37,059 nucleotides of DNA from an uncultured Candidatus Peribacteria bacterium (GTDB lineage Bacteria; Patescibacteriota; Gracilibacteria; Peribacterales; Peribacteraceae). Shown piece after piece: positions 4,477 to 9,935 of the stretch (its first letter is position 1; each line of letters opens with the position of its first letter). The position numbers and the translations under genes are program-made. Location: contig CAYMAT010000007.1 of assembly GCA_964388495.1 (NCBI GenBank), forward strand, positions 1-37,059, read 5' to 3'. The notes under the pieces were generated by a model. That model worked only from the letters and a program-made list of their open reading frames with translations. It made no database searches and had not been told where the DNA came from.

Positions 4477-5121
4477 TCAACGAATGTTCGCCGTGCTCTT
4501 CTGCTCCATGCCGGGCACCGCGCGGATTTCCTTACCCGTCACTTTTCCGTCTTTGAACGTGTAGACGATGGGCGTGACCAGCGGGATTTCGAACGTAGCC
4601 GCTTCTTCTTCGCTCAAATTATCCAGATACATGATGATGGGGCGGAGGCTATTGCCGTGTGCCACCACTAGCACGGTGTTTTCGCCCGTGATTTCCGGAA
4701 CGATGTACTGCTTGTAGAACGGCAGTGTGCGGCGGACGCAGTCCTCAATGCTCTCACCGTTGGGAGGACGGATGGAATAGCTCCGGCGCCACTGCTTCAC
4801 CTGTTCCTCGCCGTACTTCTTAATGGTATCGGCCTTGTTGAGTCCCTGCAGGTCCCCGTAGTGGCGCTCGTTCAGCGCGGAATCCAGAACAGGAACGGCA
4901 TCACAGGAGCCATATCCCTCCAGCACTCCCTTATACGTATTTTGCGCACGCTTGAGGCGCGAGATAAAGACTTTGTCGAAGGTGAAACCTGTAAGGCTCT
5001 TACCGGCCAACACCGAGTCTTTCTTTCCCGCATCAGAAAGCTCCACATCCGTCCAGCCGGTAAAGCGGTTTTCCAGGTTCCATTGCGACTGTCCGTGACG
5101 GAGGAGGATGAGGGTAGCCAT
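4477..5121 (-). CDS. gpmA: 2,3-bisphosphoglycerate-dependent phosphoglycerate mutase
   Basis: N-terminus MATLILLRHGQSQWNLENRFTGWTDVELS with the RHG catalytic motif, then ...VVAHGNSLRPIIMYL. Confidence 0.9.
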   Translation of the reverse strand: MATLILLRHGQSQWNLENRFTGWTDVELSDAGKKDSVLAGKSLTGFTFDKVFISRLKRAQNTYKGVLEGYGSCDAVPVLDSALNERHYGDLQGLNKADTIKKYGEEQVKQWRRSYSIRPPNGESIEDCVRRTLPFYKQYIVPEITGENTVLVVAHGNSLRPIIMYLDNLSEEEAATFEIPLVTPIVYTFKDGKVTGKEIRAVPGMEQKSTANIR

Positions 5122-5191
5122 AGGCCTATGGTAGAGCCAAAAAAGCTCATGATCTAGCTGAATGCAGCTATATATCTAAAATTCAGTTTTA

Positions 5192-5200
5192 TGGTATAAT
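5192..5200 (+). promoter_or_regulatory. Extended -10 promoter element (TGgTATAAT) for the 5213 ORF
   Basis: tggtataat at 5192-5200, 12 nt before ATG 5213, with no SD in between. A 6-bp inverted repeat tagctg-aatg-cagcta at 5154-5169 lies in the same divergent intergenic region. Confidence 0.5.
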
Positions 5201-5212
5201 TATAAAGTAAGC

Positions 5213-7510
5213 ATGGACAAGCAATCATCACCAATTAATGGCCTAGAGGCACTGGAAAGCTTGTCGCAAAAATTGTCGACACTGGAAAAACAATATGGAT
5301 CGGAAAAGGAACTCCTCATGCACATCAGCACGGAATGGACACACTCCCCTGTGCGAAATTGGCTACTGGAGAATTATGATGAATGCGAGGAAGGAGTCAT
5401 GGGCGCCCTTTCCCATCCGCACAAAAGTACACTGCGCCACAGCATGTCGGATTTGAACGAATTCTGTCGCGAACTCCTAGAAAAATCCCATACAGAAAAT
5501 AATGACATATCGCGGCAAATGATGATCGGCGCGATCGCGCAAAACATGCAGATTATTTTGAATGAACTTATCAAATATGTACCAAGGAATTTAGTACATG
5601 CTAAAAAAGATGCGAACGCCATGGGAAGAAGTATTCCAAACGACGGAGCACGGGGAGAGCTAGAAAGGAAATCTGCATTTTCTGCCACCATCCGGAACAA
5701 TTGGAATGATGAGTGGAGATCTTCCGAATCAAAAAAGGAATTTGCTGACGCGCTCAGAAGTCGAGTGGGTACTCTCACGCTGGATGGTCGGTTTCGCAAA
5801 GAATACCAAAACTTCACCGTCGTCTTTGAAGTGCAAAATTGTTTCAATGCAGAAGAAAACAAGAGCTGGTCCGAAGCTCCTGAAGAAAAAGTATACATTC
5901 GCACATATGAGGACGACGAAATGCATCACATATTTGAAGCAACGTTCGAATATGCGACGACTTTTCCTTCCGATGGAGTCATCCTCTTGCCGCGTGTCTA
6001 CGGTCACCATCAGGAGAACTCCCGCGCTTCATCCGTGAGCATCGCCTATCCCGAAGAAGTGTATATTATGGATAAGCATGAAAATATCGCTAACACAGCC
6101 ACATTTACACGAGACGCATTAGGCAATTATCGTGCACGCTTTTCACCGGAAACTATTTCCGAGAATGTCGGAAAAGAACTGCGTGTTTTTGTGCACTGCG
6201 AAATCTGTAATCTTGAACTTGAAGAAAAATATCTGGGATCAGCCGCATCGGGGAAAATCCATGCGCCCCTTCTCACATTGCCGGAAAATCTCGCTCAGGC
6301 ATCTGTGTACGATTTGCCCGCGATTATTGGAACGCAGGCGGTCTATGACTGCTGCGACGTAAAGCCCACTCCAATCACTCCTCTGGGTGCCACCAAAGCC
6401 GACATGGTACTTGAACAGCAGCGCGCATCCTGCGTGGGTTCTCATCAACTACTGATTGCGGCTATATGCGCAAAAGAACCTAAAAGATTGATAGGCCTGG
6501 TGCGCGGATATTCCTGTGTAGGAAAAGATGTAATACCCGTGATGCAAGCGAATAGTCATGTGAATGTACTCATAGATCAAAATATTATTTTAGATGCCAC
6601 GCCCTGGTCCCAGAAATCACACCACGAACATCAACATAATATTCTCATCTATAAATTTATTGGAAATACGCTTAAAGAAATACAGGCGAGAGTCATAGAA
6701 GAGAGGAAAAACAAAGGTCTACCGGTCATGTATCCCGGATCGGATCTGCATACTCAACTTCAAACACTGGATAATAGAAGTATATGGGGAGACTTTTCGC
6801 CAAACATCTGCCCTTCTGAATGCATTGATCAGAAGAATGTTTTAAAGAATTTTGCGCTCACTATTTCCGCAGACAGCATTTCGCAGAGAAGGCAGCCTGA
6901 CGATGCAAAAAAACTGGAGGTACAATCGTGGTTCTCCGGAATGTGGACGAGCGACGAAATGGAGAGAGACGCGGAGGCAGTTGCCAGGCGCCACCAAGAC
7001 ATTGTGGCGAATAATATTCCGATCTATGCATGCATTGTTGATGAGATAGATAGGGTCAAAGCACAGTGGGTGGAGGAGTTTAAGGAAACATTTCAGAAAA
7101 CCATCGGCACCGTAAAAGAAGAATTCTGGAACGGCGCACCGTGGCTAAATCTGTTAGGCAAACCTTTTGATATCGAGGCATTGGAGCGTTTTTTTAAGAA
7201 CAATGAATCCACGGGGATTATCAACAATGGGTGGCCTCAGGCAGTGAGAGTGGGCATGTATTTTTCCAATGAAGAATGCTCAAAAACAATGGAACAAAGA
7301 TTGATATGGATACACGACTATCTTGCAAGCATGAAAAAATCTACAGATGCAGACACCTTGCCCTTTCCTGCTATGCAATTGCTACATAAGACAAAAACCA
7401 CCATTCCCTACGGCAAAAGAAAGACAACTGATCTTAATGCCGCAAAGCTCTATCAAGAGCTAAAAGAACATCTTCTGATAAAGGATCCCAAAACACCCAT
7501 AGAAGATTGA
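5213..7510 (+). CDS. Large hypothetical protein (765 aa) with a central transglutaminase-like Cys-His-Asp core
   Basis: Long AT-richer ORF. Residues about 403-465 read ASCVGSHQLLIAAICAKEPKRLIGLVRGYSC...ANSHVNVLIDQNIILDATPW. This fits the C..(F/H)A.L...R..GIPAR.V.GY....H.W.EV......DPT pattern. Confidence 0.75.
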   Translation: MDKQSSPINGLEALESLSQKLSTLEKQYGSEKELLMHISTEWTHSPVRNWLLENYDECEEGVMGALSHPHKSTLRHSMSDLNEFCRELLEKSHTENNDISRQMMIGAIAQNMQIILNELIKYVPRNLVHAKKDANAMGRSIPNDGARGELERKSAFSATIRNNWNDEWRSSESKKEFADALRSRVGTLTLDGRFRKEYQNFTVVFEVQNCFNAEENKSWSEAPEEKVYIRTYEDDEMHHIFEATFEYATTFPSDGVILLPRVYGHHQENSRASSVSIAYPEEVYIMDKHENIANTATFTRDALGNYRARFSPETISENVGKELRVFVHCEICNLELEEKYLGSAASGKIHAPLLTLPENLAQASVYDLPAIIGTQAVYDCCDVKPTPITPLGATKADMVLEQQRASCVGSHQLLIAAICAKEPKRLIGLVRGYSCVGKDVIPVMQANSHVNVLIDQNIILDATPWSQKSHHEHQHNILIYKFIGNTLKEIQARVIEERKNKGLPVMYPGSDLHTQLQTLDNRSIWGDFSPNICPSECIDQKNVLKNFALTISADSISQRRQPDDAKKLEVQSWFSGMWTSDEMERDAEAVARRHQDIVANNIPIYACIVDEIDRVKAQWVEEFKETFQKTIGTVKEEFWNGAPWLNLLGKPFDIEALERFFKNNESTGIINNGWPQAVRVGMYFSNEECSKTMEQRLIWIHDYLASMKKSTDADTLPFPAMQLLHKTKTTIPYGKRKTTDLNAAKLYQELKEHLLIKDPKTPIED

Positions 7511-7537
7511 GTGCTCGCAAAAGGGAGTGAATTCCGG

Positions 7538-7543
7538 TATAAT
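7538..7543 (+). promoter_or_regulatory. -10 box (TATAAT) for the 7552 ORF
   Basis: TATAAT at 7538-7543, 8 nt upstream of ATG 7552. Confidence 0.45.
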
Positions 7544-7551
7544 GATCAGAA

Positions 7552-7872
7552 ATGCACATGGAATTCTTCCCTCAACTCAAAAGCGCGCACGGCATGATCT
7601 GGGCGCTCCTGAGCAGCTGCCTGATTGTCGCCATAGCCGCCACGCTTGCCCGCGCCACCATCAACCTGCGCGGGGCGCTGACCGCGGATGACGCCAGTCT
7701 TGCCGTGATGCTGCTGCTCCCGGACGAGAACATCTCGGACATCACCATGATCAAGGCAGGCCCCGACACCGAGGAGTTTCTGGCGCAGACAAAGGAAGGA
7801 CCCAAACTGGTCCGCACCCAGAAAGAGAACGGGACCTGGCACGTCCAGGAGTTGATCAAGTTGCGTGAATAA
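7552..7872 (+). CDS. Small membrane-anchored hypothetical protein (106 aa)
   Basis: One N-terminal hydrophobic helix (MIWALLSSCLIVAIAATLA). A -10 box sits at leaderless distance. The competing antisense ORF 7546..7953 has junk composition. Confidence 0.5.
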   Translation: MHMEFFPQLKSAHGMIWALLSSCLIVAIAATLARATINLRGALTADDASLAVMLLLPDENISDITMIKAGPDTEEFLAQTKEGPKLVRTQKENGTWHVQELIKLRE

Positions 7873-8119
7873 TCCCCATTTTATGAAAGCAAAGCATCCA
7901 TCCATCGAGGAGGAGCTAGAAAAGTCCGCCGATGAAATCCAAGGCCATATCAATAAGCTCCCGCTTGATCAGCAGGAGAAGTTTGAAGGTCGTCTCGTCG
8001 CTTCACGGAATCTAATCGCTTCCGTTACAGGGGGAAAAACGGTGGATGAACAAGAGCTGCTGGCGTTGAAAGGAAGTTTTTCTAGACTCTTGAACGACGT
8101 GAAGAAAATCCAAAACTGA
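7865..8119 (+). CDS. Small helical hypothetical protein (84 aa; the start could be ATG 7883)
   Basis: The ORF overlaps the stop of the previous gene by 8 nt. Charged, helical composition. No homolog recognised. Confidence 0.4.
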   Translation: MNNPHFMKAKHPSIEEELEKSADEIQGHINKLPLDQQEKFEGRLVASRNLIASVTGGKTVDEQELLALKGSFSRLLNDVKKIQN

Positions 8120-8138: not shown

Positions 8139-8933
8139 TTAGGAAGCTTTTTTACCGCTGAGAACAAAAAAAGGGAAAACCACCACCGCGTTCCACATGC
8201 GCTTCCAGCGGGACGGCTCCTGCGCAAACCTCCAGGCCCATTCCAATCCGATCTTTTGGAGGAATATCGGAGCTCTCTTTTTCTCCCCCGCCAGAAAATC
8301 AAACGTCCCCCCCACCCCCATCGCCACTTTCACACTGGGCATGTCCTGTAAGTGACGATTGATCCAGATATCCTGCTGGGGCGCTCCAAATGCCACCAAC
8401 AGAAGATGCGGCCGAATGTCATTGACGGCACTGAGGATTTTTTCAGCATCGCATTCCTTTGGGGATCCGGACATTGTCATGACAATATTGAGCTCCGGAT
8501 TCATAGTCCTGAGTGCAAGTGCCGCCTTTTCCGCCACCCCCGGCGCAGCACCCAGGAGAAAAACACGCACCCCGTCATGGAGCTGCCTGCAGAGAGCTTG
8601 GACCGTGTCCGCACCCGTCACGCGTTCCGGAAGCGCCTGCCCCGTGAGACGCGCCATCCATACCAAGCCCTGACTGTCCGGCAGATTGAGGTCCGCGGAC
8701 CGCAGTACGCGCGCGAACTCCGGGTTACGGACGGATTCCACCAGCATTTCCGCATTGGGCGTCATCACGTGCCTGCCCGCCGAAGCTTTAGCGTTGGCGG
8801 GGTTCTCCCCTTCTTTTACATCAAGCATCTCCATCAAGCGTGTCACCGCCTCCTGTTGCGTGAGGGAATCGACAGGGATGCCCAGTATGTGGGATCGGGA
8901 ATTCACGAAAAAAGCGTACCACGGCGCGGCCAA
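8139..8933 (-). CDS. tagA: WecB/TagA/CpsF-family glycosyltransferase (UDP-ManNAc: lipid-linked GlcNAc ManNAc-transferase-like)
   Basis: ILGIPVDSLTQQEAV...VMTPNAEMLV...ADLNLPDSQGLVW...VFLLGAAPGVAEKAA...LLVAFGAPQQDIWI...VAMGVGGTFDFLAG..RAP...GLEWAWR. The start is uncertain. The ORF track uses TTG 8933, and GTG 8906 is an alternative. Confidence 0.85.
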   Translation of the reverse strand: MAAPWYAFFVNSRSHILGIPVDSLTQQEAVTRLMEMLDVKEGENPANAKASAGRHVMTPNAEMLVESVRNPEFARVLRSADLNLPDSQGLVWMARLTGQALPERVTGADTVQALCRQLHDGVRVFLLGAAPGVAEKAALALRTMNPELNIVMTMSGSPKECDAEKILSAVNDIRPHLLLVAFGAPQQDIWINRHLQDMPSVKVAMGVGGTFDFLAGEKKRAPIFLQKIGLEWAWRFAQEPSRWKRMWNAVVVFPFFVLSGKKAS

Positions 8934-8954
8934 ACCCTGTATCGTTTGCGGGTC

Positions 8955-9677
8955 GTGAAAAAGACGCTTGCATTCATCGGCTTCTGCATTGTCCTTTCGG
9001 CTTGTACAAGCCTTAAAACAAATACGCCTTCCTCACCTGCAGCTTCCTCCGGCTCTTCGCTCTCGTCTCTCCCCCTCCCGCCCACGGTGGATGGTGCAGA
9101 AACGCAGACGGGGATTTTGGTGGAGAGCGAGGATGATACCTCCTCTGACGGGGAATTGCGGTCTTCCACGGGAGCCCTCTTGGAGAGCGCCGCAACGGAT
9201 GGCTCGCTGACACTGGGGAATACCGCAACGGTACTGACCGTCTATACCAATGCTTCCTGCTCGTACTGTCATGATTTCCTGACGCAGATGTTGCCCGCAC
9301 TGACGGATGAATTCGTTGCCCAGGGGAAACTGTCCGTTCGTTTCGTGACCGTTCCGCTCAAGAAGTACCCCAACTCCGCGCTGGAAGCCGGGGCTGTGTA
9401 CTGTGCAGCGCGCGAGGGAAAGGGTCTGGCAATGATGGAGGCGCTGCACGCACTCCCCACCCATGACCGCAAGAAACTGCTTTCCGCCGCCGCGGCGCTG
9501 AAGGCGTCATCCGCCTTTCCTGCATGCCTGGACAGCGCGGAAGGCAAGGCAGCCATTACCGCAGGGGAAAAGAGCAGCATCACGCTGCTCCCCACGTTTG
9601 TTTTGAACGGAAAGAGCATTACCGGGCTCCCCATGCCCGCGGATCTCCGGGGCTGGATACGCCAGGAAACGCGGTGA
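8955..9677 (+). CDS. DsbA-like thioredoxin-fold lipoprotein (thiol:disulfide oxidoreductase)
   Basis: I place the start at GTG 8955. The signal peptide has a lipobox (VKKTLAFIGFCIVLSAC), followed by a Ser/Pro-rich linker and a CxxC motif (CSYC) in a DsbA-like context. The ORF-track extension back to 8352 is antisense to tagA. Confidence 0.75.
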   Translation: MKKTLAFIGFCIVLSACTSLKTNTPSSPAASSGSSLSSLPLPPTVDGAETQTGILVESEDDTSSDGELRSSTGALLESAATDGSLTLGNTATVLTVYTNASCSYCHDFLTQMLPALTDEFVAQGKLSVRFVTVPLKKYPNSALEAGAVYCAAREGKGLAMMEALHALPTHDRKKLLSAAAALKASSAFPACLDSAEGKAAITAGEKSSITLLPTFVLNGKSITGLPMPADLRGWIRQETR

Positions 9678-9935
9678 TCAGCGGCTGATCCGGACGATTT
9701 TCTTCTTGGACGTGAAGCCGCTCACGAGCGTGACGGCGTTTTTGGGAACGCCGTGCATCTCCGCGATAAAGCGCAGAAGCTCCAGATTGGCGGCGTTGTC
9801 CTCCGGCGCAGCGGCTACGTCTATCTTGAGCGTGCCGTCCGCCATGGTGGATGCAATTTTCGTCTTCTGCGCATGGGGACGCGCACGGATATGGAGAATG
9901 GTATCCATCATCATTTGGTCATGTTTTTCCGCCAT
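9678..9935 (-). CDS. DUF167 (YggU-like) family protein
   Basis: ...[13 protein letters not shown]....[49 protein letters not shown] is typical of DUF167. An alternative start at ATG 9914 would form an ATGA overlap with the trmD stop. Confidence 0.75.

What the first reader, a model, noticed from the sequence alone, without database searches (positions are those of the whole stretch)
5192..7510. 765-aa orphan with a transglutaminase-like Cys-His-Asp core
- This AT-richer ORF has its own extended -10 promoter (TGgTATAAT).
- At nt ~6419-6610 it contains ASC(407)VGSHQLLIAAICAKEPKRLIGLVRGYSC-x14-SH(449)VNVLIDQNIILD(461)ATPW.
- The order and spacing of the residues match the transglutaminase-like / papain-fold core: Cys-x-x-(F/H)-A-x-L ... 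G-(I/L)-x-x-R-x-V-x-G-Y ... H-x-W-x-E-V ... D-P-T.
- The ~400 residues before the core and the ~300 after it have no motif I can recognise.
- There is no signal peptide, so the protein is probably cytoplasmic.
- Large cytoplasmic transglutaminase-like proteins of unknown function are poorly characterised. This one is followed by two small ORFs that have their own promoter (7538-8119).
Basis: partly seen in the sequence, partly recalled or inferred. Interest (0 to 1): 0.6.

Follow-up and report, generated by a model that had tools for sequence, protein, structure and literature searches.

The report
Rare acquired transglutaminase-like enzyme gene
This gene from an uncultivated Peribacteria (CPR) bacterium encodes a large soluble protein with a very divergent transglutaminase-like Cys-His-Asp enzyme core; it has only two distant relatives among about 15 billion public proteins and was inserted into an otherwise conserved stretch of the genome.

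Summary
A 765-aa ORF (5213-7510) sits 12 nt downstream of TGGTATAAT, is AT-rich for its genome (GC z = -3.0), and carries C407, H449 and D461 exactly as described.

No curated library names any part of it: Pfam, NCBIfam, PHROGs, PADLOC and PDB sequences all give nothing.

An exhaustive HMMER search found only two remote homologs (22-27% identity). One is in another Peribacteria MAG and one is on an unassigned SRA contig. Both keep C-x-G-x-H, the His and (I/L)(I/L)DATPW.

A profile of the three cores matches genuine Transglut_core (PF01841) domains at 92-94% hhalign probability, with Cys, His and Asp in register. Shuffles, reversals and four decoy families all score below 10%.

The protein forms a new family-level branch of the superfamily, because the Pfam model itself does not reach it. 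AlphaFold models were unusable (pLDDT 37-42), so the triad geometry is untested.

- **Insertion:** relatives have an empty 175-bp site, or unrelated genes, between gpmA and the first small downstream ORF.
- **Downstream ORF s1:** it is a family core gene (170 of 200 genomes) and not a partner of the orphan.
- **Likely role:** a thiol peptidase or amidase with an unknown substrate.

Interest is moderate.

The parts
5192..5200 (+). Extended -10 promoter-like element TGGTATAAT, ending 12 nt before the ATG. This would give a near-leaderless mRNA with no Shine-Dalgarno sequence.
   Evidence: Read directly from the sequence. It is the only TGNTATAAT in the window. Function as a promoter is inferred, not shown; the generic -35/-10 scan does not flag it.
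5213..7510 (+). Orphan gene: 765 aa, soluble, with no signal peptide or TM segment.
   Evidence: Only two remote homologs exist, P0002 and P0003. No paralog exists in its own genome.
5213..5773 (+). N-terminal region (residues 1-187), probably helical. It is the least conserved part and is missing from homolog P0003.
   Evidence: Alignment A1. No significant N-terminal similarity to P0002 or P0003. Helices appear only in a low-confidence model.
5774..6343 (+). Middle region (residues ~188-377), weakly conserved in all three members (D-x-[LI]-G-N-[YI] motif), possibly beta-rich.
   Evidence: Alignment A5. P0002 and P0003 are significantly similar here (E = 4e-6). No PDB match. No relation to Transglut_core.
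6395..6604 (+). Divergent transglutaminase-like (papain-fold) core, residues 395-464: Q402, C407-x-G409-x-H411, LVRGY strand, H449, ILD461ATPW.
   Evidence: hhalign against ten genuine PF01841 domains gives 93.8% and 92.0%, with Cys/His/Asp in register. The full-length alignment maps the match to the same residues.
6431..6433 (+). Codon of Cys407, the proposed nucleophile.
   Evidence: Invariant in all three members. Aligned to the invariant Cys of Transglut_core.
6557..6559 (+). Codon of His449, the proposed general base.
   Evidence: Conserved in P0002. In P0003 the His is one residue off in BLAST and misplaced by MAFFT. Aligned to the invariant His of Transglut_core.
6593..6595 (+). Codon of Asp461, the proposed third triad member, within the invariant DATPW.
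   Evidence: Invariant D-A-T-P-W in all three members. Aligned to the D-x-T/D-P-T Asp of Transglut_core.
6608..7507 (+). C-terminal region (residues 466-765), conserved in all three members. Motifs: ER[KR]xxG, FWxxAPW[LM]xL, FPA[ML]xL. Fold unknown, probably helical.
   Evidence: Alignment A4. BLAST and HMMER matches extend to the C-terminus. No PDB match. No relation to Transglut_core.
5122..7532 (.). Segment absent from relatives, lying between the gpmA start codon and the conserved s1 promoter (tccGGTATAAT). It contains the orphan and its promoter.
   Evidence: Empty site of 175 bp in G137 with conserved flanks and s1 promoter tccGGTATACT. G010 has an unrelated 160-aa ORF there. No flanking repeats.

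Best explanation
The gene is a lineage-specific, probably horizontally acquired insertion into a conserved cell-envelope and housekeeping gene block of a Candidatus Peribacteria (CPR) genome.

It encodes a soluble four-part protein:
- a variable N-terminal region;
- a weakly conserved middle region;
- a ~70-100-residue core;
- a conserved C-terminal region of unknown fold.

The core is a very divergent member of the transglutaminase-like / papain-fold thiol-enzyme superfamily.

**Proposed mechanism (inferred from the superfamily, not shown):** Cys407 is deprotonated by His449, which Asp461 orients. Cys407 attacks a carbonyl of a peptide, isopeptide or side-chain amide and forms a thioester acyl-enzyme. 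Water then resolves it, so the enzyme would be a cysteine peptidase or amidase. The invariant Q402, G409 and H411 probably shape the oxyanion hole or substrate site.

The non-catalytic regions presumably select the substrate, which is unknown.

**Shown:**
- the gene is real;
- it is compositionally atypical and absent from syntenic sites in relatives;
- the family has three known members;
- the core is statistically similar to Transglut_core with the triad in register and conserved.

**Inferred:**
- the fold;
- catalytic competence;
- hydrolase rather than transferase chemistry;
- cytoplasmic location;
- promoter use.
For: - **Gene and residues:**
- **Homologs:** only P0002 (E = 9e-9) and P0003 (E = 2.7e-6) among 1.84 billion representatives, both aligning over residues 378-535 and on to the C-terminus.
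- **Conservation:** invariant C407, G409, H411, D461-A-T-P-W and Q402.
- **Profile match:** 93.8% (E = 1.7e-7, score 48.6) and 92.0% by the built-in tool, with Cys/His/Asp in register. The match persists without the window's protein (92.6%) and without the C-x-G-K-H subgroup of templates (88.8%).
- **Controls:** shuffles give mean score 10 and max 15.8; reversals 21-24; decoy families 10-14; the protein's own other domains 8-13.
- **Shared signature:** some true Transglut_core domains of Peribacteria carry the same C-x-G-K-H-x-x-L and D-x-T-W signatures.
- **Insertion:** empty site in G137 and a different ORF in G010, with conserved flanking order.
- **Composition:** GC z = -3.0 and GC3 z = -2.3 against 778 ORFs of its own genome. 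Homolog P0003 matches the GC of its own 43% GC genome.
- **Solubility:** no TM segment or signal peptide.
Against: - The Pfam models PF01841, PF13471 and PF00877 do not detect the protein, even at E <= 1 or in six-frame genome searches.
- The window's protein alone scores only 3.6% in hhalign. It scores 4.6 bits against my own Transglut_core HMM. The link therefore depends on a three-sequence profile.
- Both AlphaFold2 runs failed (mean pLDDT 37.5 and 42.0), so neither the fold nor the triad geometry is verified.
- The His of P0003 is not in the same alignment column under MAFFT or BLAST.
- The invariant His411 four residues after the Cys is unusual. It could indicate a metal site rather than a classical triad.
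- No flanking repeats or mobility genes document how the gene arrived.
Confidence: 0.6

Rival explanations
1. Same fold and triad, but the acyl-enzyme is resolved by something other than water on a peptide bond. The protein would be a protein cross-linking transglutaminase, a Gln/Asn deamidase (as in Cif- or PMT-C3-type papain-fold deamidases), or an acyl/acetyl-transferase (as in NAT enzymes).
For: From established knowledge of the superfamily, the same Cys-His-Asp core supports all of these chemistries. The Cys-His (42) and His-Asp (12-21) spacings are compatible with compact members such as NATs. Nothing discriminates between chemistries.
Against: The statistically supported match is to Pfam Transglut_core domains. 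From knowledge of the field, bacterial members of that family are mostly regarded as peptidases or amidases. The D-A-T-P-W motif resembles the D-P-T of Transglut_core rather than the D-V-G-F-G of NATs (from memory, not tested here). No NAT or deamidase profile was tested.
Confidence: 0.2
2. The protein is an effector of inter-organism or genetic conflict. It would be a toxin-like or defence-associated thiol peptidase that is exported to a host or competitor cell, or unleashed on infection. That would explain its rarity, fast divergence, foreign composition and lack of fixed neighbours.
For: - Extremely patchy distribution: 2 of 200 family genomes and none elsewhere in about 1,000 further CPR genomes sampled.
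- Insertion into a variable slot.
- AT-rich composition.
- Homolog P0003 is followed by two T4SS_pilin-repeat membrane proteins.
- Transglutaminase-like peptidases occur as effector domains in conflict systems (PMC7159879, PMC8195603).
Against: - No PADLOC or PHROG match.
- No relative in viral contigs or phage genomes.
- No immunity-like or regulator gene is conserved next to it; the three loci share no neighbour.
- No secretion signal and no ERRLL-type N-terminal tag.
- No T4SS machinery lies near P0003.
Confidence: 0.15
3. The conserved Cys, His and Asp are structural or metal-binding (for example a Cys407/His411/His449/Asp461 zinc site). The region would not be a papain-fold enzyme, and the hhalign match would reflect convergent short motifs.
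For: - The invariant C-x-G-x-H plus a downstream His and Asp could form a tetrahedral metal site.
- The Pfam HMMs fail.
- AlphaFold gives no confident fold.
- The profile is built from only three sequences.
Against: - The match covers 66-70 columns, including the intervening hydrophobic strand (LVRGY against ARxVxGY), not just three residues.
- It is far outside the shuffle, reversal and decoy distributions.
- True Transglut_core members share the C-x-G-K-H variant.
Confidence: 0.1
4. The gene is a decaying or functionless foreign remnant that happens still to be open.
For: Foreign composition and a single copy. No expression data are available.
Against: A 765-codon intact frame carries family-invariant motifs across three proteins at about 25% identity. 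That implies long-term purifying selection on those positions. A well-placed promoter-like element is present.
Confidence: 0.05

Closest known systems
Pfam Transglut_core (PF01841): bacterial and archaeal transglutaminase-like cysteine peptidases (superfamily defined by Makarova, Aravind and Koonin 1999; cited from memory)
   Same: - Order and approximate spacing of Cys, His and Asp.
- A helix-borne Cys followed by a hydrophobic strand ending in G-[YF].
- A His-bearing strand, then phi-phi-D-x-T.
- Profile-profile probability of 92-94% with the triad in register.
- A Peribacteria subgroup of the family shares C-x-G-K-H-x-x-L and D-x-T-W.
   Different: - Not detected by the Pfam HMM at any threshold.
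- The usual aromatic/Ala pair after the Cys (C-x-x-[FHY]-[AS]) is replaced by C-x-G-x-H.
- GIPAR is replaced by non-conserved sequence.
- The core is embedded in a 765-aa protein between two regions with no known relatives.
- Only three members are known.
CPR-C4 / vasohibin-type transglutaminase-like proteases (PDB 7OB6, 7OB7, 7PJO; PMC9108980)
   Same: Both are transglutaminase-like superfamily thiol enzymes from Candidate Phyla Radiation bacteria. In both cases the relationship to known proteases is undetectable by ordinary sequence searches.
   Different: - CPR-C4 is small, homodimeric and highly conserved across the CPR. It uses a Cys-His-Leu(carbonyl) triad (C61/H93/L115).
- The present protein is large and extremely rare, and has a classical Asp.
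- No PDB chain, CPR-C4 included, matched it by sequence or profile.
BTLCP / LapG-type bacterial transglutaminase-like cysteine proteases (Pfam Peptidase_C93)
   Same: Compact papain-fold Cys-His-Asp peptidases of bacteria (from knowledge of the family).
   Different: LapG-type enzymes are periplasmic or secreted, about 200-250 aa, and calcium-dependent. The present protein has no signal peptide. The C93 profile was not tested here.
Arylamine N-acetyltransferases (NAT, PF00797)
   Same: The same fold and a Cys-His-Asp triad with similar spacings (about 39 and 15 residues; from memory).
   Different: The motifs around the triad differ (R-G-G-x-C and D-V-G-F-G in NATs, from memory). No comparison was run here.

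Membership tests
Pfam Transglut_core (PF01841) | Score above the family's gathering threshold with the curated HMM | tested here: not met
   No hit even at E <= 1 for P0001, P0002 or P0003. A six-frame search of its own genome with PF01841 found no match at E <= 0.001, while 8 of 41 genomes searched (the window's own plus 40 relatives) and 10 of 14 control genomes scored.
Transglutaminase-like / papain-fold superfamily (Pfam clan Peptidase_CA) | Significant profile-profile similarity to bona fide members, with catalytic residues in register | tested here: met
   hhalign gives 93.8% (E = 1.7e-7) and 92.0% (E = 6.7e-7). Cys407, His449 and Asp461 align to the template Cys, His and Asp.
Transglutaminase-like / papain-fold superfamily | Cys, His and Asp (or Asn) conserved among homologs in the order Cys...His...Asp | tested here: met
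   Cys and Asp are invariant in all three known members. His is present in all three, but in P0003 it is offset by one residue in BLAST and misplaced by MAFFT. The sample is only three sequences.
Transglutaminase-like / papain-fold superfamily | Alpha+beta fold with the Cys at a helix N-terminus facing a His and Asp on adjacent beta-strands | tested here: inconclusive
   The AlphaFold2 full-length model has mean pLDDT 37.5 and the core-only model 42.0. Both are too poor for geometry or fold search.
Transglutaminase-like / papain-fold superfamily | Thiol-dependent catalytic activity | not testable with these tools
   Requires expression and assay.
NlpC/P60 (PF00877) | HMM or profile similarity | tested here: not met
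   No PF00877 match in its own genome. hhalign of the core against six NlpC/P60 domains gives 0.24%.
Transglut_core3 (PF13471, lasso-peptide B / McjB-type) | HMM match | tested here: not met
   No match in its own genome or in 40 relatives. No profile-profile test was possible because no member sequences were at hand.
Known anti-phage defence proteins (PADLOC) and phage protein families (PHROGs) | HMM match | tested here: not met
   No PADLOC hit. The only PHROG hit is a chance-level one (E = 0.012, unknown function).

The most novel reading that the evidence does not exclude
The three proteins found a new, horizontally mobile family of large, soluble transglutaminase-fold thiol enzymes confined to Peribacteria-like CPR bacteria. 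They would act as conflict or host-interaction effectors: a protease or deamidase delivered to, or activated against, another cell or a virus. The unknown N-, middle and C-terminal regions would serve as novel targeting or regulatory domains. The adjacency of one member to T4SS-pilin-like genes would then be a trace of the export route.
Probability: 0.12. Interest if true: 0.6.

Novelty: new variant of a known kind. Interest (0 to 1): 0.38.

Why it matters
CPR bacteria are tiny, mostly uncultivated and probably symbiotic, and much of their accessory proteome is unannotatable. This case shows that one such 'dark' protein can be tied to a known catalytic superfamily only by profile-profile comparison of a three-member family.

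It also shows that the gene is a recent insertion into an otherwise stable block, not part of an operon with its neighbours. That gives a concrete, testable hypothesis: a thiol enzyme with Cys407 as the nucleophile.

Together with other unchecked notes of this scan, it adds to a hint that Peribacteria repeatedly acquire or invent rare papain/transglutaminase-fold enzymes. It does not open or close a long-standing question on its own.

Tried and rejected
**Direct family and structure searches: nothing usable**
- Pfam, NCBIfam, PHROGs, PADLOC and PDB by sequence.
- PDB with profiles of the core, the C-terminal region and the middle region.

**More relatives: none found**
- Two word-index searches with the orphan, plus one with P0002.
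- GTDB genome contigs gave only P0003's contig.
- Metagenome contigs, viral contigs and phage genomes gave nothing.
- Profile searches covered 200 family genomes, 401 class genomes and 401 phylum genomes.
- The marginal hits in G070, G248 and G617 (E = 0.003-0.007; 30-60 residues, each with an in-frame stop) are chance. The G070 hit lies over a tRNA-like intergenic stretch.

**Structure**
- I did not run fold search on them, because matches from such models are meaningless.

**Mobile-element signature**
- No meaningful direct or inverted repeats flank the gene.

**Shared N-terminal tag**
- Earlier unchecked notes mention an 'ERRLL'-type tag on large Peribacteria proteins. The tag is absent here, and the three N-termini are unrelated.

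**Similarity to the other AT-rich singleton, orf62**
- The N-terminal resemblance is not significant.

**T4SS link**
- Only two pilin-like genes follow P0003, with no machinery nearby.

**Read and transcript evidence**
Full report
**1. Observation**

The window holds an uninterrupted ORF at 5213..7510 on the + strand, 765 aa long. It starts at the first ATG of a 776-codon open frame.

The sequence TGGTATAAT lies at 5192-5200 and ends 12 nt before the ATG. It is the only TGNTATAAT in the window. GGTATAAT occurs only twice in 37 kb. The second copy (7536-7543) ends 8 nt before the ATG of the next gene. Both genes would therefore give near-leaderless transcripts. That is my inference; the generic -35/-10 scan does not flag either site.

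The gene has GC 0.447 and GC3 0.457. Among 778 non-overlapping ORFs of at least 200 aa in the 1.2-Mb genome, the means are 0.577 and 0.684. The gene ranks 17th lowest in GC (z = -3.0) and 23rd lowest in GC3 (z = -2.3).

The protein has a hydrophilic N-terminus and no TM-grade hydrophobic segment.

**2. What the databases say**

No family in Pfam, NCBIfam or PADLOC matches the protein. PHROGs gives only one chance-level hit (E = 0.012). PDB sequences give only a meaningless E = 0.23 match to a designed repeat protein.

The word-indexed search of 5.8 billion proteins returns only the query.

The exhaustive phmmer run over 1.84 billion cluster representatives returns two remote homologs:
- **P0002:** 905 aa, E = 9e-9, on a 3.2-kb Logan contig from run SRR22388058 (locus L014).
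- **P0003:** 714 aa, E = 2.7e-6, at the start of contig CAZLVC010000011.1 of another uncultured Candidatus Peribacteria MAG (L013, which is G094).

Each is the sole member of its 90% cluster.

Further profile searches added nothing. They covered:
- 200 genomes of the same family, 401 of the class and 401 of the phylum;
- metagenome contigs and viral contigs.

A tblastn of the orphan against phage genomes and a word search with P0002 also added nothing. Three marginal hits (E = 0.003-0.007, 30-60 residues with in-frame stops) are chance.

The family therefore has three known members among about 15 billion proteins. At least two of them are Peribacteraceae.

**3. Anatomy of the family**

The three proteins are 22-27% identical. 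They align from P0001 residue ~378 to the C-terminus.

Invariant positions cluster in three places:
- **The core:** Q402, C407, G409, H411, L414, G432, N447, D461-A-T-P-W465.
- **Just after the core:** E497-R498, G502.
- **The C-terminal region:** W639-x-x-A-P-W644, F718-P-A720.

A His follows N447 in all three proteins (SH449V, YHM, FHG). In P0003 it is one residue out of register in BLAST, and MAFFT misplaces it.

The region before the core (residues ~188-377) is weakly conserved. P0002 and P0003 match there at E = 4e-6, and a D-x-[LI]-G-N-[YI] motif is shared by all three.

The first ~185 residues are not detectably conserved, and P0003 lacks them.

**4. Test of the transglutaminase-like reading**

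The Pfam Transglut_core model does not hit the protein. It also finds nothing in a six-frame search of the window's own genome.

I therefore took ten genuine PF01841 domains that the same search found in related genomes (sequences). I aligned them and compared that alignment with the three-sequence core alignment (A2, P0001 residues 375-540) by hhalign.

| Comparison | Probability | Score |
|---|---|---|
| A2 vs Transglut_core (script) | 93.8% (E = 1.7e-7) | 48.6, 66 columns |
| A2 vs Transglut_core (built-in tool) | 92.0% (E = 6.7e-7) | 45.8 |
| 100 column shuffles of A2 | max 0.6% | mean 10.4, max 15.8 |
| 100 column shuffles of the Transglut_core alignment | max 0.5% | mean 9.4, max 14.9 |
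| Reversed alignments | 4-8% | 21-24 |
| NlpC/P60 domains from the same genomes | 0.24% | 13.3 |
| gpmA decoy family | 0.22% | 14.3 |
| s1 decoy family | 0.09% | 10.1 |
| The protein's own C-terminal and middle regions vs Transglut_core | 0.13% and 0.04% | 12.7 and 8.3 |

In the real alignments, C407 falls on the template Cys, H449 on the His, and ILD461ATP on the v-v-D-x-t Asp.

Further checks:
- The full-length alignment A1 finds the same segment (P0001 395-464).
- P0002 and P0003 without the window's protein give 92.6%.
- Removing the two templates that share the C-x-G-K-H motif still gives 88.8%.
- P0001 alone gives only 3.6%.

Some true Transglut_core domains of Peribacteria read GTC-x-GKH-x-x-L ... 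WIDVD-x-TWDP. That is the same unusual signature as the orphan family's C-[EV]-G-x-H-x-x-L ... ILDATPW.

My conclusion is that the core is a real but very divergent relative of Transglut_core. It is a new family-level branch of the superfamily rather than a member of the Pfam family.

Both structure predictions failed, with mean pLDDT of 37.5 for the full-length model and 42.0 for the core-only model. The fold and the triad geometry therefore remain untested.

**5. Genomic setting**

Gene order around the orphan is conserved in relatives: porA-porB-trmD-DUF167-...-wecG-s1-gpmA-wecB-O-antigen-ligase-like.

- **G137:** the gpmA and s1 start codons are 175 bp apart with nothing between them. The s1 promoter reads tccGGTATACT, against tccGGTATAAT in the window.
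- **G010:** the slot holds an unrelated 160-aa ORF.
- **G136:** gpmA itself is replaced by a cofactor-independent PGM.

The orphan and its promoter were therefore inserted between gpmA and the s1 promoter.

No repeats or mobility genes mark the event.

The homolog P0003 has the same GC as its own 43% GC genome. A lower-GC Peribacteria-like donor is thus plausible for the window's copy. This is an inference.

The first small downstream ORF (s1, 7552-7872) is GC-rich and has a single TM segment. It is present in 170 of 200 family genomes, while the orphan is in 2. It is a core gene, not a partner.

The second small ORF (s2, 7865-8119) is absent from G010. In G137 a different 42-codon ORF fills its place.

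The three family loci share no neighbours:
- P0003 is followed by two T4SS_pilin-repeat membrane proteins, then folP, gmk and an SLH protein.
- P0002 is followed by an unrelated ORF with a hydrophobic N-terminus.

**6. Mechanism and rivals**

The best-supported reading is a soluble thiol enzyme that uses Cys407, His449 and Asp461 through a thioester intermediate. It is most probably a peptidase or amidase, and the unknown flanking regions would choose the substrate.

The chemistry is inferred from the superfamily. Transferase, cross-linking or deamidase outcomes cannot be excluded.

The rarity, foreign composition and lack of conserved context fit an accessory or conflict-related role. Transglutaminase-like peptidases are known as occasional effector domains of such systems (PMC7159879, PMC8195603). 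However, no defence or phage family, partner gene, secretion signal or tag supports this.

A metal-site reading of C407/H411/H449/D461 is a minor rival.

**7. Comparison with the known, and verdict**

- **Closest family:** Pfam Transglut_core. The gathering threshold is not met; the profile-profile test and triad conservation are met; the structure test is inconclusive.
- **Within the CPR:** the characterised CPR-C4 protease is a small, widely conserved member of the same superfamily with a Cys-His-Leu triad (PMC9108980). It shows no detectable sequence relation to this protein.
- **Earlier notes of this scan (unchecked):** several other rare papain/transglutaminase-fold orphans have been reported in Peribacteria. 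This protein shares no detected sequence with a previously noted window.

The result is a new, very rare variant of a known kind of enzyme, with an unknown substrate and role. Interest is moderate.

Noticed in passing
window 7552-7872: The 106-aa single-TM protein s1 is a core gene of the family, present in 170 of 200 genomes (133 of 151 high-quality ones). It has no Pfam family and lies next to wecG in the three relatives inspected. It is a conserved small membrane protein of unknown function.
   Followed up: partly
L051 (G136:C1) 8398-9906, compared with window 4477-5121: At the position where the window, G010 and G137 carry cofactor-dependent phosphoglycerate mutase (gpmA, His_Phos_1), G136 carries a cofactor-independent PGM (iPGM_N + Metalloenzyme). 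This is in-situ displacement by an analogous enzyme.
   Followed up: partly
window 5193-5200 and 7536-7543: The only two GGTATAAT sites in 37 kb lie 12 and 8 nt upstream of the start codons of the orphan and of s1, which suggests leaderless or near-leaderless transcripts. The s1 element is conserved in G137 (GGTATACT). A TGTTATAAT also precedes the ORF downstream of P0002 in L014.
   Followed up: partly
window 7865-8119: The 84-aa ORF s2 is AT-richer (GC 0.47) than s1. It has no counterpart in G010, and in G137 a different 42-codon TM ORF fills its slot. It is a second small variable slot, between s1 and wecG.
   Followed up: partly
L013 2281-3860: Downstream of the homolog P0003 lie two multi-TM proteins of about 260 aa, each with several T4SS_pilin (PF18895) repeats. 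No other T4SS gene occurs within 10 kb.
   Followed up: partly
own genome, contig C13 2931-6797 and 6812-10480 (outside the window): Two adjacent giant ORFs (1289 aa at GC 0.32 and 1223 aa at GC 0.43) are among the most AT-rich long ORFs in a 57% GC genome. The genome has a clear tail of AT-rich long ORFs.
   Followed up: no
own genome, contig C9 13640-14266 (outside the window): This ORF scores 22 bits (E = 1e-5) against my ad hoc Transglut_core HMM, although the PF01841 genome search reported nothing at E <= 0.001. It may be another divergent transglutaminase-like protein.
   Followed up: no
L012 (G010:C1) 9206-9688: An unrelated 160-aa ORF with no Pfam family occupies the gpmA-s1 slot in the relative with the closest gpmA. 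The slot is variable across genera.
   Followed up: partly
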